Below are positions 2-55,077 of a stretch of 64,000 nucleotides of DNA, piece by piece. The position numbers were made by a program, and so were the translations under genes. Under the pieces are notes generated by a model. It did not search any database and had not been told where the DNA came from. It saw nothing but the letters and a program-made list of their open reading frames with translations. Positions within the stretch are counted from its first letter, which is position 1. Every line of letters begins with the position of its first letter. Source of the DNA: an uncultured Actinomycetes bacterium (GTDB lineage: Bacteria; Actinomycetota; UBA4738; JBBDTT01); NCBI GenBank assembly GCA_963742735.1, contig CAVUMN010000004.1:704001-768000 (forward strand), written 5' to 3'.

Positions 2-583
2 GCGGGGAACCGCGTCGCCCTGACCTTCGACGACTGCTACTCCTGGGCCGGCTGGGACGGGCTGCTGGACGTCCTGGGCAGCCGGGGAGTGAAGGCGACC
101 TTCTTCTGTTCGGGCAACTACATCGACGACTTCTCGAAGACCGCACAGCGGACCCGGGACCAGGGACACACCATCGGGTCGCACGGGTGGGATCACGCCT
201 CCATGCCCGGGCGCACGCTCGCCGACCAGGAGCAGCGACTGCGCAACGACCAGAACACTTGGTGGACCCACGCGCAGGAGACGACCGCCCCCTACTTCCG
301 CCCGCCGTACGGCTCCTACGACTCGACGACGCTCAAGGCGGCCACCAACACGGGCCATCCGCGAGTGATCCTGTGGGACGTGGACCCGCAGGACTTCTCC
401 ACCTCGAGCTCGTCGCTGATCGCCTCGCGCGTGCTGTCGGCCGTCCGGGCGGGGAGCATCGTCGTGATGCACGCCCTGCCCCAGACGGCGGCCGCGCTCC
501 CCGCGATCCTCGACGGCCTCAGGAACAAGGGGCTCACGCCGGTCTCGCTGGCGACCCTGTTCCGCGAGGCCGGATTCCACTGA
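2..583 (+). CDS. Polysaccharide deacetylase (NodB/CE4), 5'-truncated by the window edge
   Basis: Frame open from position 2: VALTFDD, KATFF, GSHGWDH, FRPPYG, WDVDPQD, IVVMH. Confidence 0.9.
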   Translation, partial: AGNRVALTFDDCYSWAGWDGLLDVLGSRGVKATFFCSGNYIDDFSKTAQRTRDQGHTIGSHGWDHASMPGRTLADQEQRLRNDQNTWWTHAQETTAPYFRPPYGSYDSTTLKAATNTGHPRVILWDVDPQDFSTSSSSLIASRVLSAVRAGSIVVMHALPQTAAALPAILDGLRNKGLTPVSLATLFREAGFH

Positions 584-602
584 GTCCCGCTACCATCGAG
601 CC

Positions 603-935
603 GTGAACGAGGACCTGACCGAGGCCCGCTCGGTCTACGACCGGCGCGACGAGATCCAGATCCTTGACGTCCGGGAGCTCTACGAGTGGGTCGCCGGACA
701 CGTCGACGGGTCGGTGCACCTTCCCCTCAACGCCGTCCTCAACGGCAAGGAGGACCTCGACCCGGCGAAGCCCGTGGCCGTGGTGTGCACCGTCGGCAGC
801 CGGAGCGAGGTCGGCGCGCTCATGCTTCGGGCCCGAGGCTTCGACGCCCACAACGTCGACGGGGGTCTGCACTCCTGGGTGGCCGAGGGCCTTCCCCTCG
901 TCGCCGACGACGGGTCGCCGGGCCGGGTCGCCTAG
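603..935 (+). CDS. Rhodanese-like domain protein
   Basis: ILDVRE..EW..GHVDGSVHLPL; active-site loop VCTVGSRS; VDGGLHSW. Confidence 0.9.
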   Translation: MNEDLTEARSVYDRRDEIQILDVRELYEWVAGHVDGSVHLPLNAVLNGKEDLDPAKPVAVVCTVGSRSEVGALMLRARGFDAHNVDGGLHSWVAEGLPLVADDGSPGRVA

Positions 936-1453
936 AACTCCAGCGAGCAGTTCTCGCAGGCGAACCGTCCACTCGCCTCGCGCTTGCTGTGGCCGCCGCA
1001 CCGGTGGCAGCGCCGGCAGCTCCCTCCGTAGGCGCACTCGATGGAGTCCGTGGTGGTCCCCGGCTCGTCCCAGGTGGTGGCGCCTTCGGCCGGTCGCGGC
1101 AGCTGGATCGAGAGCATGTGCAGGCCGTCGGGTCCCGCCACGAACCCGTGCGGGTGGGCGGCGCCGCGTCCGACCACCGACCCGGGGTGCAGGGGCACGG
1201 GGGTCGCGCTGAACAGCGCCCGGCCTCCGCCCGCGACGACGACCACCCACTCCTCCGAGTCGGGATGCGTGTGCGCGAAGGCGACCTGACCCGCGGCGAA
1301 GCCCTGAAGCGAGATGTAGTAGCCGTCGCCGGCGGTGATCGGGACCCGGCGGAACCCCGAGGGACACGTCCCGATCAGGTCCTCGGGGTGGGTGTGGAAC
1401 ACGCCCAGGTTGTTCAGGACCTCGTCCAGGTGGCCCACCGCGCGGTCGCTCAC
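932..1453 (-). CDS. Cupin-domain protein with C-terminal Cys-rich zinc-ribbon-like tail
   Basis: HTHPDSEE and HPHGF cupin motifs; tail CAYGGSCRRCHRCGG...CENC. Start codon uncertain. Confidence 0.7.
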   Translation of the reverse strand: MSDRAVGHLDEVLNNLGVFHTHPEDLIGTCPSGFRRVPITAGDGYYISLQGFAAGQVAFAHTHPDSEEWVVVVAGGGRALFSATPVPLHPGSVVGRGAAHPHGFVAGPDGLHMLSIQLPRPAEGATTWDEPGTTTDSIECAYGGSCRRCHRCGGHSKREASGRFACENCSLEF

Positions 1454-7533: not shown

Positions 7534-8066
7534 TGGCCGCCCGGTCGGTTCGCCGCGTCGCGGCCGTCTTCCGTCACCGGGCGCAGGCCGAGCGCGCCGC
7601 GCAGTCGCTCGAGCGGCTCCGCCTGGGCGACGACATCCAGGTGACCCTGGAGGACCGCCGCATGACCGACGATCCGCCGGACGAGCCGCCGGCGGCCGTG
7701 GAGGACTTCGAGTACGAGCGGGACCGGGAGGTGGTCGGGCACGTCTTTCGAACCACCGCGACGCTCTCGATCCTCTACGCGATCGGCGGGGCGCTGGTCG
7801 GTGGCGGGGCCGGCTGGGCCATCTGGGGCTGGTCCACCACCGGCTTCTGGATCGCCCTCGTCGTCGGCGCCGTCACCGGCACCGTCCTCGGGGCCATGCA
7901 GGGTGGCATTTCGGCGGCGATGGACGAATCCGAGAAGGAGGAGGGCACGGTGCTGATCGCCGAGACGCGCGACCCGCGCAGCGCGCGGTTCGTCGAGGAG
8001 GCCCTGCAACGCCACGGGCCGGCGAGGATCGACACGTCCGGGGCCCGCGGGAGGCTGGCCGGCTAG
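7533..8066 (+). CDS. Hypothetical membrane protein (general-stress/glycine-zipper-like)
   Basis: Coupled to the hemerythrin gene (TGATG); VAAVF..R.QAERA..L; two Gly-rich TM helices. Confidence 0.6.
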   Translation: MAARSVRRVAAVFRHRAQAERAAQSLERLRLGDDIQVTLEDRRMTDDPPDEPPAAVEDFEYERDREVVGHVFRTTATLSILYAIGGALVGGGAGWAIWGWSTTGFWIALVVGAVTGTVLGAMQGGISAAMDESEKEEGTVLIAETRDPRSARFVEEALQRHGPARIDTSGARGRLAG

Positions 8067-33532: not shown

Positions 33533-34903
33533 ATGGCTTCGAGCGACCTCGTCGGGTCGACCGCCGCCCAGATCGCCGACCGGGTCCGGGCCGGCGACGC
33601 CGCCCCCGCCGAGGTGATCCGGGCGCACCTGGAGCAGATCGACCGGGTCAACCCGAGGCTGAACGCGTTCCAGGTCGTCCGGGCCGAGCGTGCGCTGGCC
33701 GAGGCGAAGGCGCTGGGCCGCCGGCGGGCCGCGCTGTCCGACCTCCCCCTCGCCGGGGTCCCGTTCGCGGTCAAGGACAACGTGCCGGTGGAGGGCGAGC
33801 CCATGCGCGACGGCTCGCCGGCGACCTCGGACGCGCCGCAGGCCCGCGACCACGTCGCGGTGGCTCGGATCCGGGCCGCGGGGGGGATCGTGATCGGCCT
33901 GACACGGGTGCCCGAGCTCTGCATCTGGGGGACCACCGACGGGCCGTGGGGGATCACCCGCAACCCGTGGGATCCGTCGCGGACGCCGGGGGGTTCCAGC
34001 GGCGGCTCCGCCGCGGCCGTCGGCAGCGCCATGGTCCCGGTGGCCCACGCCAACGACGGCATGGGCTCGATCCGGATCCCCTCGGCGAACTGCGGGCTGG
34101 TGGGGATCAAGCCGGGGGTCGGGGTGATCCCGTGGGGCGATCAGGCGAGCGAGTGGTTCGAGCAGGCCCAGCACGGCCCCCTGGCCACGACCGTCCAGGA
34201 CTGCGCCCGGTTGCTGTCGGTCATGGCCGAGCGCCCCGAGTGGGCGACGGTGAAGCGGCCCCGGGCGGGAGCGGTGCGGTTCGCGGTCTCGGTGAAGTCG
34301 CCGCTCGCCGGCGTACCGGTCGACGCGGAGTGGAAGGCGGCAGCGCGGTCCACCGCGGAGCTGCTGGCCGGCGCGGGGCACCGGGTCGAGGATCGCGACC
34401 CGCCGTACTCGTCGAAAATCCTCCTGGGCAACATCCTCCGCTGGTATGCCGGTTCCTGGGAGGACGCCCGCGAGCTCGACTGGGCGAAGCTCCAGCGCCG
34501 GACGCGCGGACACGCCCGCGCGGGACGCGTGGCGCTTCGGCGCGGATGGGTCAAGCCCGCGCAACGGGAGACGTGGCGCGCCGCGCTCGAGCCGCTGTTC
34601 GAGGCCCACGACGTCCTGCTCACGCCCATGCTCGCGCAGGTCCCCATCAAGGCGGTGGCCTGGGACCGGCGGGCCTGGGCCGCAAACCTGCTCTCCAACA
34701 GCCGCTACGCCCCGTTCGCCGCCCCCTGGAACTTCGCGGGGTATCCGGCGATGGCGGTCCCGGCGGGGATGCACTCGAAGGGGATGCCGCTGTCGGTGCA
34801 GCTGGTGGCCAAGCCTGGCGGCGAGCCGCTGCTGCTCTCGGTGGCCGCGCTTCTGGAGAAGCTCCGCCCCTGGCCGCGCCACGCGCCGATCGCCCGGGTC
34901 TGA
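33533..34903 (+). CDS. Amidase signature family enzyme
   Basis: [43 protein letters not shown]. Confidence 0.93.
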
Positions 34904-35938: not shown

Positions 35939-38593
35939 CTACGTCTCGCTGAGGATCCGCTCGACCGCGGCCAGGCTCTCGTCGAAGGAGAGCTTCCGGC
36001 CGCGCTCCCAGGCGGACTCGGCGACCTCCTCGGACAGGGCCGCCCGGGCTTCCACCGCGGGGTCGCCGTAGACGTCCGTGAGGACCTCGAGGGGCGCCCC
36101 GCCGCCGGTGAGCTCGCGGAGGGTCGCGTCGGCACCGAACAGCATCAGCGCCTCCTCCGGGCGGTGCTCGTAGACGAGCATCGCCGCCGCACTCCACACG
36201 CACTGGGCCAGGCCGGTGGGGTTGTCCGCCTGACGGAACAGCTCGATCGCCTCCGTGAGGTCGCGCCGGGCCTCCACGGGCTCGCCGACGATGGCCCGTC
36301 CGATCGCGGATCCGGTCAGGCTGTCGGCCAGCCCGAAGCGGTTTCCCAGCTCCCGGTAGGTGGCGACGACGGACTGCAGCAGCTGCAGCGCGCCCTCCAC
36401 GTCTCGGTCCTTCAAGTCCTCGTACGCCATGAGCGAGTTCGCGTTCGCCTCCAGGAGCCGATCCCCGGCGCTTCGGGCCAGGGCCGCGCTCTCCTCGAGC
36501 GCCTGCCGAGAAGCCGCGCGGTCGCCCCCGATCAGGTGGATGAACGCCAGGTCGAACAGCGCGTTCGCGGTCCCCGCGTCCTCACCGATCCCGCGCCACA
36601 CCGTCAGCGCCTCGTCGTAGTACCGCCGGGCCGTCACGAAGTCGTTCTGCCAGTAGACGATCCCGCCCGCACCGGTCAGGGCCTTGGCCCGGTGGCGGGT
36701 CGGCGTCTGCGCGGCGGGATGCTCCAGCGCTCGAGCGGCCCAGCGGCGGCCCTCGTCCAGATGACCGCGCTGATGGAAGAAGCGCCACAGGGACCCGAGG
36801 ATCCGCATCGCCGGCTCGGGGTCGTCCCCCTCGAGCGACCAACGCAGGGCCATTCGCACGTTGTCGTGCTCGCGCTCGATCGTGCCGAGCCACGTGACCT
36901 GTTCCGCCCCGGTCAGGTGTGGCTCGGCCTCCTCGGCCAGGGCCACGAAGTGCCCCGCGTGCCGTCGCCGGACCTCCTCGACGTCGAGGGCTCCGTCGAG
37001 CTTCTCCTCCGCGAACTCGCGGATCGTCTCGAGCATGACGAACCGCGGCTCCCCGTCCTCGTCGATCTGGCGAAGGAGGCTCTCGTCCACCAGGTCGGCG
37101 AGCCCGTCGAGGGTGTCGAGCTCGAGCTCGTCGCCGGGGTTGGTCACCGCGTCGGCCGACTCGAACGTCGCGCCGCCCATGAACGCGGCCAGTCGCGCGA
37201 AGAGGGCCCGGTGGGGATCGTCCAACAGGTCGTAGGACCACTCGATGGCCCCGCGGAGGGTCCGCTGCCGCTCGGGGAGGTCCTTCGCACCGGAGGTCAG
37301 CAGCTGCAGCCGGTGCTCGAGCTTCGGCAGCATGGCCTGGGGTGAGAGCAGCTTGACCCGCGACGCGGCGAGCTCGAGCGCGAGGGGCAGCCCGTCCAGG
37401 CGGTAGCAGATCTCGGCGACGGCCGGCGCGTTCTCGTCGGTGACGACGAAGTCGGGCTTGGCCGCCCGGGCCCGGTCGATGAACAGGGCGACCGCCTCGT
37501 ACTGGCTCACCGCCTCGGCGTCGGGGAGCGCCGCGGGATCGGGCAGCACGAGCGGCGGCACCGGGAACTCGTGCTCGCCGTAGATGTGCAGCGGGATGCG
37601 GCTGGTGGCCAGGACCGTCAGCCCGGGGGAGGCGGCCAGCAGGTCGGCGACGACCGAGGCCGCGTCCGTGACCTGCTCGTAGTTGTCGAGGACCAGCAGG
37701 AGCTCGCGCTCCTTCAGATGCTCGGCCAGCATCTCCACGGCGCTTCGCCCCGGGTTCTCGGGGACCCCGAGGGCCTCGGCGATCGTCGGCGCGACCAGGG
37801 CCGCGTCCATCAGCGGGGACAGGTCCACGAAGAAGGCTCCGTCGCGGAAGGAGGTCAGCAGGTCCATCGCCGTTCGCAGGGCCAGGCGGGTCTTGCCCGT
37901 GCCGCCGGGCCCGGTCAGGGTCAGCAGGCGCGCCTGCATCAGCCGCTCGGCGATCTCGACGAGCACCTCGCCGCGGCCGATGAACCGGGTCAGCTGCGCC
38001 GGCAGGTTGTTCGGCCGGGCGTCCAGCCCCCGGGGGGCGGGGAAGTCGGGCTGGCACCCCTCGATCACCAGCTGGTGGAGGTGCTCGGGATGGTCGAGGT
38101 CCTTCAGGCGGTGTGAGCCGAGGTCGCGAAGGGAGGCGCCCGGGGGCAGGGACCGCTCGACGAGCGCACGCGTCGCGTCGGAGAGCAGGACCTGGCCACC
38201 GTGAGCCGCCGCCGCGATGCGCGCGGCGCGGTTGACGTCGAGGCCCGCGTAGTTGTCGCCGCCCCGGATCCCCTCACCGGTGTGCAGGCCCATCCGGACC
38301 CGGACCGTTCGCCCCTCGGGCCATGGGTGGGCGACGAGGGCCCGCTGCGCCTCGTGTGCCGCCGCCACCGCCGCGACCGGGGAACGGAACACCGCGAAGA
38401 AGGCGTCGCCGTCCGTGGAGACCTCCACGCCGTCGACGCCGGCGATCGCCGTTCGGATCAGGCCGGCGTGGGTCTCGAGCAGGTTGGCGTAGTCCTCAGC
38501 CGCGGCCTGGAGCAGTCGCGTGGAGCCCTCGATGTCCGAGAACAGGAACGTGACGGTCCCGATCGGCAGGTCGCGCTCGCGCGGCTCGCTCAC
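35939..38593 (-). CDS. Class III adenylate/guanylate cyclase - STAND (NB-ARC-like) ATPase - TPR protein
   Basis: TFLFSDIEGST, DGDAFF, VRMGLHTGE, DVNRAARI; GPGGTGKT, LVLDNYE, LDGLPLALELAA; C-terminal helical repeats. Start GTG 38593 or in-frame ATG 38716. Confidence 0.9.
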   Translation of the reverse strand: MSEPRERDLPIGTVTFLFSDIEGSTRLLQAAAEDYANLLETHAGLIRTAIAGVDGVEVSTDGDAFFAVFRSPVAAVAAAHEAQRALVAHPWPEGRTVRVRMGLHTGEGIRGGDNYAGLDVNRAARIAAAAHGGQVLLSDATRALVERSLPPGASLRDLGSHRLKDLDHPEHLHQLVIEGCQPDFPAPRGLDARPNNLPAQLTRFIGRGEVLVEIAERLMQARLLTLTGPGGTGKTRLALRTAMDLLTSFRDGAFFVDLSPLMDAALVAPTIAEALGVPENPGRSAVEMLAEHLKERELLLVLDNYEQVTDAASVVADLLAASPGLTVLATSRIPLHIYGEHEFPVPPLVLPDPAALPDAEAVSQYEAVALFIDRARAAKPDFVVTDENAPAVAEICYRLDGLPLALELAASRVKLLSPQAMLPKLEHRLQLLTSGAKDLPERQRTLRGAIEWSYDLLDDPHRALFARLAAFMGGATFESADAVTNPGDELELDTLDGLADLVDESLLRQIDEDGEPRFVMLETIREFAEEKLDGALDVEEVRRRHAGHFVALAEEAEPHLTGAEQVTWLGTIEREHDNVRMALRWSLEGDDPEPAMRILGSLWRFFHQRGHLDEGRRWAARALEHPAAQTPTRHRAKALTGAGGIVYWQNDFVTARRYYDEALTVWRGIGEDAGTANALFDLAFIHLIGGDRAASRQALEESAALARSAGDRLLEANANSLMAYEDLKDRDVEGALQLLQSVVATYRELGNRFGLADSLTGSAIGRAIVGEPVEARRDLTEAIELFRQADNPTGLAQCVWSAAAMLVYEHRPEEALMLFGADATLRELTGGGAPLEVLTDVYGDPAVEARAALSEEVAESAWERGRKLSFDESLAAVERILSET

Positions 38594-38746
38594 GAGGGCG
38601 ACCGTACGACGGTTCGACGGAACCGAACAAGGCCGAGGCGCGTCCGAACCCCTCGGGGGGCCTCGTGGCCTCGAAGATCCGCTCCGCCGCGCCGTCCACA
38701 GGTCACCGTCCTCCATGGGAGGGCCCCGCCGCGCGCGGCTCCAGAC

Positions 38747-38857
38747 AGGACACGTGGTTGCTCGTGACTCGAGCCACATCCCGGCCGGAGCCGGAAGGCA
38801 CCTTGGGTGTCCCTCCCAGGTTGCCGGGCCCGGCGAACCGGGCCGCTCTCGATGCGG
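38747..38857 (-). ncRNA. SAM riboswitch, SAM-I/IV-type architecture
   Basis: Minus strand: CGCATC GAGAG [GCCCGG TTCG CCGGGC] CC GGCAACC TGGG AGGGACA CCCA AGGTGCC TT CCGGC TCCG GCCGG GATGTG, then hairpin GCTCG-AGTCA-CGAGC and GTGTCCT complementary to loop GGGACAC; -10 TATCCT at 38863-38868. Confidence 0.85.
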
Positions 38858-38924
38858 GCCGAAGGATAGCGGCGTTCGTCGCCGGGCGACAAACGGGGGG
38901 GAGTGCGGGGGGTAGCCTTCGAGG

Positions 38925-40157
38925 ATGGCCGGGGCCGCCGAGGTGACGCCGCTCGACGTCGGGTTCGACCCCACGGACCCCGGGTTCGTCGCCAACCCGT
39001 ATCCGGCGTACGCGAGGCTCCGGGAAGCGCACCCGATCCTGCACAACCCGCTGACCGACCAGTGGGTGGTGTCGAGGCACCGCGACGTCAACCGGCTGCT
39101 CCGCGACCGGCGGTTCGGCCGCACCTACCTGCATCTCGCGACCCCCCAGGAGATGGGGCACGTCCCCGAGCCGGAGTGGCTGGCCCCGTTCTGGTACGTG
39201 ATCCGCAACGGGATGCTCGACCGCGAGCCCCCGGACCACAGCCGGTTGCGGACCCTCGTCTCCAAGGCGTTCACGCCGCGCACCGTGGAGCGGCTCCGGC
39301 CCCGCGTGCAGGCCCTGATGGACGGCCTGGTCGACCGCGTGGCCGGCGCCGGCGAGTTCGACCTGCTCAAGGAGCTCGCCGAGCCGCTTCCGGTGACGGT
39401 CATCGCCGAGATGCTCGGGGTCCCCGAGTCCGACCGTCACCTCCTTCGGCCGTGGTCGGCCGACATCTGCCGGATGTACGAGCTGAACCCCACCGACGAG
39501 GACGGCCGGATCGCCCTGGGCGCCGCCACCGAGTTCGCCGAGTACCTCCGCGGGCTGATCCGCGAGCGGCGGGACCGGCCCGGCGAGGACCTGATCAGCG
39601 GCCTGGTGCACGCGGTCGAGGAGGGGGACCGGCTGACCGAGGACGAGGCCATCGGGACCTGCGTGCTGGTGCTGAACGCGGGCCACGAGGCCACCGTCAA
39701 CGTGACCGGAAACGGATGGTGGGCGCTGTTCCGCAACCCGGACGAGCTCGCGCGCCTCCGGGAGGACCGCGCGCTCCTGCCCGGCGCGGTCGAGGAGCTC
39801 ATGCGCTACGACACGCCGCTGCAGATGTTCGAGCGGTGGGTGCTCGAGGACGCCGAGATCCTGGGGGTGCCGGTCCCGAAGGGCAGCGAGCTGGCGCTCC
39901 TGTTCGGCAGCGCCAATCACGATCCCGAGGCCTTCGACCGGCCCGACGCGCTCGACGTGGGGCGCGAGCCGAACCCGCACGTGAGCTTCGGCGCGGGCAT
40001 CCACTTCTGCCTGGGTGCGCCGCTGGCGCGCGTGGAGCTCGCGATCAGCTTCGGGACGATCCTCGATCGCCTCCCCGGCCTGGAGCTGGTCGAGGAACCC
40101 GAGTGGAAGCCGAACTACATCATCCGCGGGCTCACATCCCTGCGCGTACGCAGCTGA
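38925..40157 (+). CDS. Cytochrome P450
   Basis: AGHEAT (I-helix), EELMRY (ExxR), FGAGIHFCLG heme motif. Confidence 0.95.
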   Translation: MAGAAEVTPLDVGFDPTDPGFVANPYPAYARLREAHPILHNPLTDQWVVSRHRDVNRLLRDRRFGRTYLHLATPQEMGHVPEPEWLAPFWYVIRNGMLDREPPDHSRLRTLVSKAFTPRTVERLRPRVQALMDGLVDRVAGAGEFDLLKELAEPLPVTVIAEMLGVPESDRHLLRPWSADICRMYELNPTDEDGRIALGAATEFAEYLRGLIRERRDRPGEDLISGLVHAVEEGDRLTEDEAIGTCVLVLNAGHEATVNVTGNGWWALFRNPDELARLREDRALLPGAVEELMRYDTPLQMFERWVLEDAEILGVPVPKGSELALLFGSANHDPEAFDRPDALDVGREPNPHVSFGAGIHFCLGAPLARVELAISFGTILDRLPGLELVEEPEWKPNYIIRGLTSLRVRS

Positions 40158-40183
40158 GCGTTCCCGGGCAGTACGCTTCGCTC

Positions 40184-40945
40184 GTGGATCGCGTCTTCCG
40201 ATGCTTCGTCGCGCTGGGCGACAGCGTGACGGAAGGGGTGGGGGACCCGCTGCCCGCGCGCCGGCTCCGCGGATGGGCGGACCGGCTGGCGGAGGGGTTG
40301 CGCACGGTCAACCCCGGCCTCGAGTACACGAAGCTCGCGGTGAAGAGCCTGACGAGCCGTGAGATCCGAGACGCACAGCTCGAGCCCGCCCTGGCGCTGG
40401 AGCCCGACCTGGCGGGAGCGATCGTCGGCATGAACGACGTGCTGAAACCCGGGTTCGACCCCGAGAACGTCCGCGAGCCGCTCGAGGACGTCGTCACGCG
40501 GCTGCAGGAGGCGGGGGCGACGGTCCTGATGGCCACCCTCCCCGACGTCACCCGGATCCTTCCGCTGCCGGAGCGGGTCAAGGCCCCGATGCGTCCCAGG
40601 CTCGAGGCGGCCAACGACGTGGTGCGCGCCATCGCGGCGGCGCATGACGCCGTGCTGGTGGACGCCAGGGACTGGCCGGAGGAGCTCCGCCGGGCCAACT
40701 GGAGCATCGACCTCCTGCACCCCAACTCCCGCGGCCACCTGCTGATCGCCCGGGCCTTCGCGGACAAGCTCGGCCTGCCCTCCGACGCCCTTCCCGAGCC
40801 GGAGCGCGTCCGGATCGTGGGCGCGGAGTCGGCCCGCCACGCCCGGTGGCTGGCCCAGGAGGTCGGCATCCCCCAGGTCCGCCGTCGGGCGGCGCGGCCG
40901 GCGGCCGCGATCGGGAAGCTGGGACGACGCCTGGGCCGTTCTTGA
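40184..40945 (+). CDS. SGNH/GDSL hydrolase
   Basis: ALGDSVTEG, GMND, DLLHPN..GH. Confidence 0.9.
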   Translation: MDRVFRCFVALGDSVTEGVGDPLPARRLRGWADRLAEGLRTVNPGLEYTKLAVKSLTSREIRDAQLEPALALEPDLAGAIVGMNDVLKPGFDPENVREPLEDVVTRLQEAGATVLMATLPDVTRILPLPERVKAPMRPRLEAANDVVRAIAAAHDAVLVDARDWPEELRRANWSIDLLHPNSRGHLLIARAFADKLGLPSDALPEPERVRIVGAESARHARWLAQEVGIPQVRRRAARPAAAIGKLGRRLGRS

Positions 40946-53886: not shown

Positions 53887-55077
53887 TCACGACGGGGTCG
53901 CGGCCGGCCGGCGCGCGGGCCGCTCGAACCGGCCGAAGAGCCACACCAGCCCGACCAGGAACACCGCCGGGACCAGCTCCCACAGGGGCCGCTCGGCCCA
54001 CCACGAGGCGGTGGTGTCGCCCTGCTGTCCGAACCCGATCGGCCACAGCACGAAGATCGCCAGCAGGAACGCCGTCATGTGCCACAGGAACAGGGTCATC
54101 ACGATGGTGTTCAGCGAGATCACCGCGGCCCACACCTTTCGGCGCTGCAGCCAGCGGGACAGGACCGGACGCAGCAGCATGACCGCGCCGATGCTCCAGA
54201 TCCCCATCGCCAGCATCATCAGCGTGGGCGGGTTCGTGTTCGTGATGAGCTCGACGTCGGTCCCCAGCAGGCTCCGGGGGTAGATGCTCACGCCGGGCCA
54301 CACGCGGTTCAGGTTGGTGAACGCCATCATCGCCAGGAACCCGATCACGGCCATCGCCGCGAACCCCTTCGTCCCGAGCTTCAGCAGACGGCCTTCGGCG
54401 TAGAAGTAGCCGAGCTGGTGGGCGAACAGGAACACCAGCCACACGTTCGCGAACCCGATCCCCTCCACGTCCAGGCCGAAGCGGACGATGTCGACCGCGA
54501 TCGCCCCCAGGACGAACGCGATCGGGACGGCCGCGCCGAACCGATCGTGGAGCCAGATCGTGACCGGGCTCACCATGACGACGACCAGGTACACGGCCAG
54601 GAACCACAGGGGGCCGAACGGGATCGTCGCCCCCGGCGGGCGCATCCCGCGGAGCCAGGGGACCTCGGGCCTGACGCCGCCGGTGTCGGTCAGGTGCAGG
54701 ATCACCTGGATCACCACCCAGATCCCCACGAAGATCAGCGACGGCTTCAGGAGCCGCTCGGCCCGAGTCCACAGGAACCGCCACACCGGCTCGCCGCGCT
54801 TGCGGTACGAGCGATACGACGTGAAGTTCGAGAAGCCCCCGACGAAGAAGAAGATCGGGATCACCTGCATGGCCCAGGTGAGCATCCACAGCCAGGACGT
54901 CAGCCCGATCGCCGAGACCGACCGGATGATCCCGTCCTCCCAGATGATCACGCCGATGAACCAGTGGCCGAAGACCACGGTCACGATGCTCGCCGCGCGC
55001 AGGAAGTCCATGAACCGGTCCCGGGAGCCGGGCGTGGCGTCGACCAGGTCCTGCAGGGTGGTTTTCGGGGCGGGCAT
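53887..55077 (-). CDS. Acyltransferase family 3 membrane protein
   Basis: RDRFMDFLRA, VVFGHW, QVIPIFFFVGGF, LWFLAVY, NTNPPT, MTLFLWH. Confidence 0.9.
   Translation of the reverse strand: MPAPKTTLQDLVDATPGSRDRFMDFLRAASIVTVVFGHWFIGVIIWEDGIIRSVSAIGLTSWLWMLTWAMQVIPIFFFVGGFSNFTSYRSYRKRGEPVWRFLWTRAERLLKPSLIFVGIWVVIQVILHLTDTGGVRPEVPWLRGMRPPGATIPFGPLWFLAVYLVVVMVSPVTIWLHDRFGAAVPIAFVLGAIAVDIVRFGLDVEGIGFANVWLVFLFAHQLGYFYAEGRLLKLGTKGFAAMAVIGFLAMMAFTNLNRVWPGVSIYPRSLLGTDVELITNTNPPTLMMLAMGIWSIGAVMLLRPVLSRWLQRRKVWAAVISLNTIVMTLFLWHMTAFLLAIFVLWPIGFGQQGDTTASWWAERPLWELVPAVFLVGLVWLFGRFERPARRPAATPS

What the first reader, a model, noticed from the sequence alone, without database searches (positions are those of the whole stretch)
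35939..38868. SAM riboswitch in front of a nucleotide cyclase-STAND ATPase-TPR signalling gene
Seen: the minus strand at 38747-38857 has the SAM-binding core (AUC-GAGAG, GGCAACC...AGGUGCC, closing GAUG). P2 is a plain UUCG hairpin without the SAM-I kink-turn. A P5 hairpin follows P1, and the 3' GUGUCCU pairs with L3 GGGACAC (PK-2). A TATCCT -10 box sits just upstream. Established: P5 plus PK-2 without PK-1 defines the SAM-I/IV class, which normally controls methionine, SAM or sulfur genes. Seen: the only substantial downstream gene is a class III cyclase-NB-ARC-TPR protein. Inference: methyl-donor status may be wired to cyclic-nucleotide signalling through an NLR-like protein, a link I do not know to be described.
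Basis: partly seen in the sequence, partly recalled or inferred. Interest (0 to 1): 0.82.

Follow-up and report, generated by a model that had tools for sequence, protein, structure and literature searches.

The report
Relocated SAM riboswitch beside cyclase gene
A genuine SAM-sensing riboswitch sits upstream of a cyclase signalling gene, but in the one sister genome the two lie apart, so the pairing looks like a local rearrangement, not a dedicated SAM-to-cyclic-nucleotide circuit.

Summary
Rfam finds one SAM-I/IV aptamer at 38860-38744 (-), 49.6 bits against a cut-off of 41.1. The plain UUCG-capped P2, P4, P5, PK-2 and the TATCCT -10 box are all present. Covariation in 23 relatives supports the fold.

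The proposed link to the cyclase-NB-ARC-TPR gene is not supported.
- In the only same-genus genome, the orthologous P450 and cyclase genes are 55 nt apart with no riboswitch. That genome's riboswitch, with the same SD-led short ORF and an identical 19-nt motif, lies in a different spacer.
- None of 119 further loci with this aptamer core has a cyclase downstream. Most have metX.
- The SD and start codon after the aptamer (GTG 38699) belong to a 67-codon ORF in another frame. The cyclase starts 150 nt after the aptamer, at GTG 38593, and has no SD.
- The cyclase has a TANNNT box 7 nt upstream of its start. That is the leaderless-promoter signature seen at 193 of 1458 long ORFs in this genome.

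Best reading: a roughly 280-nt riboswitch cassette that changed position. SAM control of the cyclase by read-through is possible only in this genome and remains untested.

The parts
38863..38892 (-). Predicted promoter of the riboswitch unit. The -10 box TATCCT is at 38868-38863. A weak -35 box TTGTCG is at 38892-38887, 18 nt upstream.
   Evidence: Read. TATCCT fits TANNNT and ends 7 nt before P1 G38855. The strict sigma-70 scan found nothing here, so this is a motif only.
38744..38860 (-). SAM-I/IV riboswitch aptamer: P1, plain P2 with a UUCG loop, P3, P4, P5 and the PK-2 3' strand at 38753-38747.
   Evidence: Rfam RF01725, 49.6 bits against a cut-off of 41.1. Covariation on 23 aptamers.
38709..38723 (-). 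Candidate expression platform. CCCUCC (38723-38718) faces the Shine-Dalgarno GGAGGA (38714-38709) across a 3-6 nt loop.
   Evidence: Read. In the MFE the SD and the GTG at 38699 are partly paired, but the fold is no better than shuffles (z 0.26). Similar anti-SD/SD hairpins precede the start codons in L003, L005, L014 and L030.
38496..38699 (-). Short ORF of 67 codons, starting at GTG 38699, 9 nt after the SD. It is in a different frame from the cyclase and overlaps the cyclase start by about 97 nt. Only its first 26 or so codons look coding.
   Evidence: the GC-rich codon position at 38704-38615 fits this frame. The G001 counterpart also has an SD, then 9 nt, then a start codon, then 12 codons before RPPEGFG. 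No homologues were found.
38644..38662 (-). A 19-nt motif, GGCCCCCCGAGGGGUUCGG, identical in G000 and G001. It encodes (R)PPEGFG in the short-ORF frame. Its role is unexplained.
   Evidence: Alignment A1. It occurs once in the own genome. The codon differences on either side are synonymous (AGG/CGG and GGA/GGC), read.
38601..38606 (-). TACGGT, the predicted -10 box of the cyclase gene's own leaderless-type promoter. It ends 7 nt before GTG 38593.
   Evidence: Read. Genome-wide, TANNNT ends 6-9 nt before the first start codon in 193 of 1458 long ORFs, against 0-6 per offset at offsets 13-26. The G001 ortholog has TAGAAT ending 9 nt before its GTG.
35939..38593 (-). Class III nucleotidyl cyclase - STAND (NB-ARC/AAA_22) ATPase - TPR gene, 884 aa.
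   Evidence: Pfam and NCBIfam partial matches. The closest solved cyclase domain is Ma1120, 4wp3, E 3.9e-19. Start set by the GC3 profile and the G001 ortholog.
38913..40157 (+). Divergent cytochrome P450 gene (ATG 38925) with a TAGCCT -10 box at 38913-38918, 6 nt before its ATG.
   Evidence: Pfam p450. 80% identical ortholog in G001. The -10 box was read.

Best explanation
A functional SAM-I/IV riboswitch forms a small self-contained cassette. It holds its own -10 box, the aptamer, an SD that can be masked by a C/U-rich anti-SD, and the start of a short ORF. The cassette occupies different intergenic spacers in the two known genomes of this genus. In this genome it fills the P450-cyclase spacer: 331 nt here against 55 nt in the sister genome.

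Inferred mechanism: SAM binding locks P1 and PK-2, and the SD GGAGGA (38714-38709) is then masked. This shuts off translation from GTG 38699, as at other SAM-I/IV leaders of this order. The regulated output is the short ORF, or the leader RNA itself. It is not the cyclase.

The cyclase starts 150 nt after the aptamer, has no SD, and carries its own leaderless-type TANNNT promoter. The riboswitch-cyclase adjacency is therefore a species-specific product of local rearrangement. Any SAM effect on the cyclase would be indirect, through read-through or interference.

Shown: the aptamer, the lack of conserved synteny, and the motif positions. Inferred: the promoters, the SD masking, and translation of the short ORF.
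For: - Aptamer: passes the Rfam cut-off. It has been kept in both species with compensatory changes in P2, P4 and P5.
- Sister genome G001, contig read in L043: P450 lies at 23-1258 (-) and the cyclase ortholog (64% identity) starts at GTG 1314 (+). They are 55 nt apart with no riboswitch.
- G001 riboswitch: it sits at 7635-7757, 47.2 bits, in the 356-nt amidase-GDPD spacer. That spacer is only 45 nt in the window.
- Shared tail: both cassettes have an SD, then 9 nt, then a start codon, then 12 codons, then an identical 19-nt motif.
- Wider survey: 0 of 119 genome-contig loci with this aptamer core have a cyclase starting within 700 nt downstream. Of 111 loci with enough flank, 90 fall in the metX cluster, 4 are MetE-like and 2 are metK (representatives checked).
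- Relatives: tblastn of the cyclase against the 30 riboswitch loci of G000 and the 60 relatives hit only the window's own.
- Coding signal: the cyclase frame shows coding GC3 only from about 38614 downward.
- Own promoter: TACGGT ends 7 nt before GTG 38593. TANNNT at offsets 6-9 occurs in 193 of 1458 long ORFs, against 0-6 per offset at offsets 13-26. TANNNT as the actinobacterial -10 box and widespread leaderless mRNAs are described in passages of PMC3898074.
Against: - Only two genomes of the genus exist in the collections, and G001 is 61% complete. The direction of the move cannot be polarised.
- The scan found no terminator between aptamer and cyclase, and the hairpin at 38673-38627 is no better than shuffles (z -1.24). 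Read-through into the cyclase is therefore plausible.
- The short ORF has no homologue in two large protein searches. Outside the 7-residue motif it is not conserved between G000 and G001.
- The SD-masking hairpin is not statistically distinguished (z 0.26).
- Both -10 boxes are motif matches only; the strict sigma-70 scan found 0.
- A conserved, intact aptamer implies that it regulates something, and in this genome the only sizeable gene in its path is the cyclase.
Confidence: 0.6

Rival explanations
1. The riboswitch is the 5' leader of the cyclase-STAND-TPR mRNA. SAM level sets cyclase expression by read-through transcription, or through the overlapping short ORF, and so couples methyl-donor status to cyclic-nucleotide signalling in this species.
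For: - Same strand, 150 nt apart, with no other sizeable gene between them.
- No terminator by the scan, and the intervening hairpin is unremarkable.
- The aptamer is intact and evidently under selection.
- The cassette insertion separates the cyclase from most of its ancestral 55-nt upstream spacer.
Against: - The adjacency is absent in the sister genome and in every other locus examined. Among the 150 listed cyclase-STAND matches in 61 genomes (32 more were not listed), only the window's own lies next to a riboswitch hit. This comes from comparing the tables by eye.
- The SD and start codon that follow the aptamer open another frame.
- The cyclase GTG has no GGAG, GAGG or AGGA within 4-12 nt upstream.
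- A TANNNT box sits at the leaderless distance from the cyclase start.
- Ribosomes on the short ORF would run across the cyclase start out of frame.
Confidence: 0.2
2. An orphaned remnant. The cassette is the leftover leader, plus about 26 codons, of a lost SAM-regulated gene such as a metE-like, hom or metX gene. It no longer regulates anything useful.
For: - A coding-like GC-rich third position holds only for the first 26 or so codons of the short ORF and then decays.
- Neither metX nor metH was found in G000 (89% complete), and metX was not found in G001 (61% complete).
- There is a loose resemblance, RPP at residue 13-14, to the N-terminus of the MetE-like protein that follows the genome's other riboswitch.
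- The short ORF has no homologues.
Against: - The aptamer is intact in both species with compensatory pair changes, and a 19-nt tail motif is identical, while the surrounding spacers have diverged beyond recognition. A neutral remnant shared since the split of two species whose orthologs are 64-80% identical should have decayed.
- No significant similarity to any riboswitch-associated protein.
- The apparent MetX-like PATGAWR string in G001 is the antisense of a conserved amidase C-terminus.
Confidence: 0.12
3. A trans-acting riboswitch RNA. The cassette makes a stand-alone SAM-sensing small RNA of about 230-250 nt. Its conserved 19-nt tail is the functional (target-binding or protein-binding) part, as with SreA/SreB of Listeria.
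For: - It sits in spacers with no gene of its own to control in G001, where it runs into the 3' end of a convergent amidase gene.
- It has its own promoter motif and a conserved tail motif.
- There is precedent for SAM riboswitches that act in trans (passages of PMC8079631).
Against: - No convincing terminator in either genome.
- The motif occurs only once in the genome, and no complementary target was sought.
- The SD, the start codon and the frame-preserving spacing point to translation instead.
Confidence: 0.08

Closest known systems
SAM-I/IV (SAM-I-IV variant) riboswitch, Rfam RF01725
   Same: It passes the curated score. P2 is a continuous hairpin without an internal loop or PK-1. P4, P5 and the PK-2 pairing between L3 and the 3' tail are present. 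The features match passages of PMC6890682 and PMC2864571.
   Different: The usual downstream genes are metX, metE-like, metH, hom or metK. This copy is followed only by a short unconserved ORF and then a cyclase-STAND gene. SAM binding was not tested.
The genome's second SAM-I/IV riboswitch (G000 C5:10369-10487, L002), in front of a split MetE-like methionine synthase pair
   Same: Same class, 43 bits. The aptamers are 74.6% identical over 122 nt.
   Different: L002 has the canonical methionine-gene context, and its ortholog in G001 (L028) keeps that context. The window's copy does not.
SreA/SreB SAM riboswitches of Listeria, which also act in trans
   Same: Both are SAM riboswitch transcripts that could have a role beyond the gene downstream (PMC8079631, passages read).
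   Different: SreA is a SAM-I riboswitch with a defined terminator, a downstream transporter operon and a known target. None of these is shown here.
Actinobacterial class III cyclase-ATPase-TPR/HTH multidomain proteins. The nearest solved cyclase domains are M. avium Ma1120 (4wp3) and M. tuberculosis LipJ/Rv1900c (1ybt).
   Same: The cyclase domain aligns over residues 7-148, and the FxDIEGST, GDA and NxAAR stretches are present. NB-ARC/AAA_22 and TPR follow it.
   Different: No riboswitch control of this family turned up in the searches. Activity and substrate are untested. The gene is one of several paralogs.

Membership tests
SAM-I/IV riboswitch (RF01725) | Covariance-model score at or above Rfam's gathering score | tested here: met
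   49.6 bits against 41.1, model positions 1-99, not truncated. Same result in the whole-genome search.
SAM-I/IV riboswitch (RF01725) | P2 is a single continuous helix: no internal loop or kink-turn, and no PK-1 | tested here: met
   GCGGCCCGG-UUCG-CCGGGCCC, 38846-38826, with one bulged C. The P2 pairs are 95.1% paired, and 6 of 8 show changes on both sides. The class definition comes from passages of PMC6890682 and PMC2864571.
SAM-I/IV riboswitch (RF01725) | P4 helix present (it is absent in SAM-IV) | tested here: met
   CCGGC/GCCGG, 38794-38790 with 38785-38781, read. In the MAFFT register only 74.8% of cells pair, because the register shifts by one column in some rows, the window's included.
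SAM-I/IV riboswitch (RF01725) | P5 hairpin after P1, and PK-2 between L3 and the 3' tail | tested here: met
   P5 is 100% paired, with 3 of 5 pairs changed on both sides. PK-2 is 90.4% paired, with A-U to C-G in 5 sequences. In A2, L021 has an extra A in L3 matched by an extra T in the tail.
SAM-I/IV riboswitch (RF01725) | Binds SAM and discriminates against SAH | not testable with these tools
   Needs in-line probing or ITC.
SAM-I/IV riboswitch (RF01725) | Sits in the leader of a methionine, SAM or sulfur gene | tested here: not met
   Downstream are a 67-codon ORF with no homologues and a cyclase-STAND gene. This is a usual context, not a structural criterion of the class.
Cis-regulatory leader of the cyclase-STAND gene | The riboswitch-gene adjacency recurs in related genomes | tested here: not met
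   Absent in G001. 0 of the 29 other riboswitch loci. 0 of 119 genome-contig loci.
Cis-regulatory leader of the cyclase-STAND gene | The expression platform acts on the gene's own ribosome-binding site or start | tested here: not met
   The SD and the GTG at 38699 belong to another frame. The cyclase GTG 38593 is 150 nt from the aptamer, has no SD, and has a TANNNT box 7 nt upstream.
Cis-regulatory leader of the cyclase-STAND gene | One transcript spans the aptamer and the gene | not testable with these tools
No terminator was predicted.
Class III nucleotidyl cyclase-STAND-TPR protein | Guanylate_cyc domain, then a P-loop STAND NTPase, then TPR repeats | tested here: met
   PF00211 E 8.2e-13, PF13401 and PF00931, PF13424 and PF17874. 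Ma1120 alignment.
Trans-acting riboswitch sRNA (SreA-like) | A discrete terminated transcript and a complementary target | tested here: inconclusive
   0 terminators in the scan. The tail hairpin has z -1.24. No target search was done.

The most novel reading that the evidence does not exclude
A free-standing SAM-I/IV riboswitch unit (promoter, aptamer, masked SD, and a short proline-rich ORF or conserved 19-nt tail) is kept under selection in two species without any methionine gene. It has hopped between intergenic spacers. In this genome its SAM-gated transcription and translation run straight over the leaderless promoter and start codon of a cyclase-STAND-TPR gene. SAM level would then modulate cyclic-nucleotide signalling by interference or read-through. 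That would be a newly captured regulatory link, caught early in its evolution.
Probability: 0.15. Interest if true: 0.7.

Novelty: new member of a known kind. Interest (0 to 1): 0.33.

Why it matters
If SAM really gated a cyclase-STAND sensor, it would tie one-carbon status to second-messenger signalling, which would be a new riboswitch regulon. The evidence instead shows an ordinary, well-formed SAM-I/IV aptamer whose neighbour changed through local rearrangement.

What remains of interest is narrower. An intact riboswitch has been conserved in two species with no methionine gene behind it. Only a short SD-led ORF and an identical 19-nt motif follow it. This is a small case study in how riboswitch leaders move and may acquire new targets. 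It is also a caution against inferring regulons from a single adjacency.

Tried and rejected
- Long N-terminal extension of the cyclase (ATG 38716, or the 1061-aa ORF): rejected. The cyclase-frame GC3 is coding-like only below about 38614, and the G001 ortholog starts 9 codons before GTVTFLF.
- metX remnant: the G001 short ORF contains PATGAWR, which matches the MetX N-terminal motif seen. Rejected. The string is the antisense of the amidase C-terminus RHAPVAGL, which is conserved in amidase orthologs of other families that have no riboswitch nearby.
- hom or MetE-like remnant: loose N-terminal resemblances were not significant. blastp-short found only G000 against G001, E 0.006 in a tiny database. 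G000's own hom has no such leader.
- Intrinsic terminator between aptamer and cyclase: the scan found 0. The hairpin has dG -32.2 kcal/mol but z -1.24, and 25 of 200 shuffles fold as well.
- Mobile element or MITE: no terminal inverted repeats or target duplications. The cassette is single-copy in the genome.
- More relatives carrying the cassette: a metagenome scan for aptamer core + gap + tail motif gave 0 hits. Of 80 metagenome loci with P450 orthologs (65-74% identity), none had a divergent cyclase or an aptamer-core motif. Of these, 22 had under 700 nt upstream.
- Source of the aptamer by nearest neighbour: unresolved. All classes are about 77-85% identical.
- Homologues of the short ORF: none at near length, and none scoring E <= 10 among longer proteins.
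- Literature: no paper in the library holds both 'SAM riboswitch' and 'adenylate cyclase'. The single paper holding SAM-IV, riboswitch, Actinobacteria and cyclase (listing only) is the 2007 CMfinder survey. These two searches are the only basis for saying the link is not in print.
- Supplements were closed. Additional Files 1 and 6 of PMC2864571, which hold the SAM-I/IV gene contexts, were not seen.
- Unpublished genomes are included in the tallies. These are G006, G039, G049 and G052, plus G014, G027, G030 and G031. Loci L011, L015, L019, L024, L029, L250 and L255 come from them. Alignment A2 and the covariation count leave them out. No central conclusion depends on them.


Full report
**The observation.** A cmscan of the whole window against Rfam 15 returns one hit above its curated cut-off. 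It is RF01725 (SAM-I-IV) at 38860..38744 on the minus strand, at 49.6 bits against 41.1, covering model positions 1-99.
- P1: GCAUC 38855-38851 with GAUGU 38780-38776.
- P2: a continuous hairpin, 38846-38826, capped by UUCG.
- P3: 38825-38797, with loop L3 at 38814-38808.
- P4: 38794-38781.
- P5: 38774-38760.
- PK-2: 3' GUGUCCU 38753-38747, complementary to L3 GGGACAC.
- TATCCT at 38868-38863, ending 7 nt before the first base of P1.

I aligned 23 aptamers from relatives, leaving out genomes flagged as unpublished, and counted pairs for a structure written from the Rfam alignment plus P4 and PK-2.
- 94.2% of cells form standard pairs, against 35.6-54.3% when the 3' partners are slid by 1-3 columns.
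- 0 of 500 shuffles reach the observed covariation score.
- P2 and P5 carry many double changes.
- PK-2 is 90.4% paired, with an A-U to C-G swap in 5 sequences.

The features fit the published description of the class: P2 not split, no PK-1, P4 present, P5 and PK-2 present (passages of PMC6890682; PMC2864571 says the variant lacks the internal loop in P2).

**The downstream gene.** The ORF in that direction carries Guanylate_cyc, AAA_22/NB-ARC and TPR domains. Its cyclase domain is closest to the solved Ma1120 domain (4wp3, E 3.9e-19). The true start is GTG 38593.
- The third-codon-position GC of this frame is 0.87-1.0 only from about 38614 downward.
- The ortholog in the sister genome starts at a GTG 9 codons before the conserved GTVTFLFSDIEGST.

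The cyclase therefore begins 150 nt after the aptamer ends. The genome holds many such genes: 19 tblastn matches to the cyclase domain at E < 1e-10, four of them full-length cyclase-STAND-TPR paralogs.

**What lies between aptamer and cyclase.** Directly after the aptamer come a C/U-rich stretch (CCCUCC 38723-38718), an SD (GGAGGA 38714-38709) and, 9 nt later, GTG 38699. This GTG opens a 67-codon ORF in a different frame from the cyclase. Between 38704 and 38615 the GC-rich codon position is the one expected for this short ORF, not for the cyclase frame. The signal fades after about 26 codons.

Other SAM-I/IV leaders of the same order (L003, L005, L014, L030) show the same arrangement right before the start codon of their downstream gene: an anti-SD, a small loop and an SD. 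The expression platform here therefore addresses GTG 38699. The local fold is not better than shuffled sequence (z 0.26), so the masking hairpin is plausible but not demonstrated.

**Comparative test of the adjacency.** The whole genome (3.08 Mb, 5 contigs, 89% complete) has two SAM-I/IV aptamers. The other one (43 bits) precedes a split MetE-like methionine synthase pair.

Of 61 genomes (G000 and 60 relatives), 23 have a hit. Reading the first ORFs after the 30 loci gives:

| Downstream context | Loci |
|---|---|
| MetE-like type A | 5 |
| MetE-like type B | 5 |
| metH | 5 |
| hom | 2 |
| uncharacterised proteins | 5 |
| no clear ORF | 5 |
| contig end | 1 |
| G001 cassette | 1 |
| the window's own copy | 1 |

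Representatives of the named classes were checked by Pfam. The rest were assigned by likeness of their N-termini. tblastn of the cyclase against these 30 loci hits only the window's own.

Of these, 8 had too little downstream sequence. Of the other 111, the first ORF falls into one cluster of 90, plus 4 MetE-like, 2 metK, and 15 others in small or single clusters. The large cluster is metX by its representative L074 (475.5 bits against a cut-off of 331); L098 is a metX fusion with a Cys/Met PLP enzyme. None of the 119 has a cyclase match starting within 700 nt downstream.

**The sister genome is decisive.** Contig C182 of G001 (same genus, 61% complete) is syntenic with the window (tblastx).
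- There the P450 gene (80% identity) and the cyclase ortholog (64%) are divergent neighbours, 55 nt apart, with no riboswitch. In the window the same spacer is 331 nt.
- G001's riboswitch (47.2 bits) lies about 3.7 kb away. It sits in the 356-nt spacer between an amidase gene and a glycerophosphodiester phosphodiesterase gene, on the strand opposite to both, and runs into the 3' end of the amidase gene.
- In the window those two genes are 45 nt apart, with no riboswitch (families).

Aligned, the two riboswitch segments share several features:
- the promoter region;
- the aptamer, with compensatory changes in P2, P4 and P5;
- an SD followed 9 nt later by a start codon;
- exactly 12 codons of diverged sequence;
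- an identical 19-nt stretch, GGCCCCCCGAGGGGTTCGG, reading (R)PPEGFG, flanked by two synonymous differences.

After that stretch they are unrelated. So a unit of about 280-310 nt sits at different places in the two genomes. Two other genes of the neighbourhood have also moved. With no outgroup that carries the cassette, the direction of the move is unknown.

**The cyclase's own promoter.** In this genome, TANNNT hexamers ending 6, 7, 8 or 9 nt before the first start codon of long GC3-rich ORFs occur 69, 47, 30 and 47 times (193 of 1458). At offsets 13-26 the count is 0-6 each. This is the signature of leaderless mRNAs driven by the actinobacterial -10 box, as described for M. tuberculosis (passages of PMC3898074).
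- The cyclase has TACGGT ending 7 nt before GTG 38593.
- Its G001 ortholog has TAGAAT ending 9 nt before the GTG.
- The P450 gene has TAGCCT ending 6 nt before its ATG.
- No SD core lies 4-12 nt before the cyclase GTG.

The cyclase is therefore probably transcribed from its own promoter as a leaderless mRNA. On a longer read-through transcript the same GTG would be internal and without an SD, and ribosomes on the short ORF would cross it out of frame. These are inferences from motifs.

**What the cassette is for.** The intact aptamer in both species, with compensatory changes, and the identical tail motif argue for selection and against a decaying remnant. The surrounding spacers, by contrast, have diverged beyond recognition.

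The short ORF is weakly supported as a gene. The SD, the start codon, the frame-preserving spacing and the synonymous flanking changes speak for translation. The lack of any homologue and the lack of conservation outside seven residues speak against a folded protein. A leader peptide or an RNA-level element are both possible.

Several ideas about its origin did not survive testing:
- a metX remnant;
- a hom or metE-like remnant;
- a mobile element;
- a repeat family.

A stand-alone trans-acting RNA, as with SreA (PMC8079631), remains possible. However, no terminator is evident.

**Verdict.** The riboswitch is real and is a normal member of RF01725. Its pairing with the cyclase-STAND gene occurs in one genome only, is not addressed by the expression platform, and is probably bypassed by the cyclase's own promoter. 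I give these odds:

| Reading | Odds |
|---|---|
| Relocated cassette whose direct output is the short ORF or leader | about 0.6 |
| Real SAM control of the cyclase by read-through | about 0.2 |
| Dead remnant | about 0.12 |
| Trans-acting RNA | about 0.08 |

The tallies include genomes flagged as unpublished. The central comparison (G000 against G001) and the covariation count do not.

Noticed in passing
G000 C5:10369-10487 (L002 1501-1619, minus strand): The genome's second SAM-I/IV riboswitch (43 bits). It lies about 60 nt upstream of two tandem MetE-like (cobalamin-independent methionine synthase, short form) genes. This is the canonical context, and it is kept in G001 (L028).
   Followed up: partly
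whole genome G000: A strong leaderless-mRNA signature. TANNNT ends 6-9 nt before the first start codon in 193 of 1458 long ORFs, against 0-6 per offset at offsets 13-26. SD cores peak 5-10 nt upstream in others.
   Followed up: partly
G000 C4:1094270-1099575, C4:1536206-1538767, and 15 further sites: A large class III cyclase repertoire for a 3.08-Mb genome: 19 tblastn matches to the cyclase domain. They include a tandem pair of full-length cyclase-STAND-TPR paralogs. Relatives carry up to 11 matches each.
   Followed up: no
L003 and L005 (ORFs of about 129-134 aa), L021, L030, L131/L045/L149: In other Acidimicrobiales, SAM-I/IV riboswitches precede SD-led genes for proteins with no Pfam family. 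The L003 and L005 proteins are homologous to each other. These are possible unrecognised members of the SAM regulon.
   Followed up: partly
L003, L005 and L014 downstream of the aptamer; window 38707-38701; L012 about 1664-1671: A second copy, or near-copy, of the PK-2 3' strand (GGUGUCC-like) lies right next to the anti-SD/SD hairpin in several leaders. It might compete for L3 and form part of the switching mechanism of this class.
   Followed up: no
L098 2427-4862: An 812-aa fusion of a MetX-type alpha/beta hydrolase with a Cys/Met-metabolism PLP enzyme (MetY/MetB-like) directly behind a SAM-I/IV riboswitch.
   Followed up: no
G000 and G001 whole genomes: No metX was found in either genome (only 20-bit hydrolase matches), and no metH was found in G000, although most relatives place their riboswitch before metX. 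The genomes are 89% and 61% complete, so absence is not shown.
   Followed up: partly
L012 1781-1804; window 34880-34903: The antisense reading of the conserved amidase C-terminus (RHAPVAGL) spells PATGAWR. By coincidence this mimics the MetX N-terminal motif (LPATGAWRPGDP), a trap for remnant hunting.
   Followed up: yes
window 40166-40771 and 53908-55056, against L043 4732-6572: Two further genes of this neighbourhood sit at different places in G000 and G001. The region has undergone several rearrangements, not only the riboswitch move.
   Followed up: no
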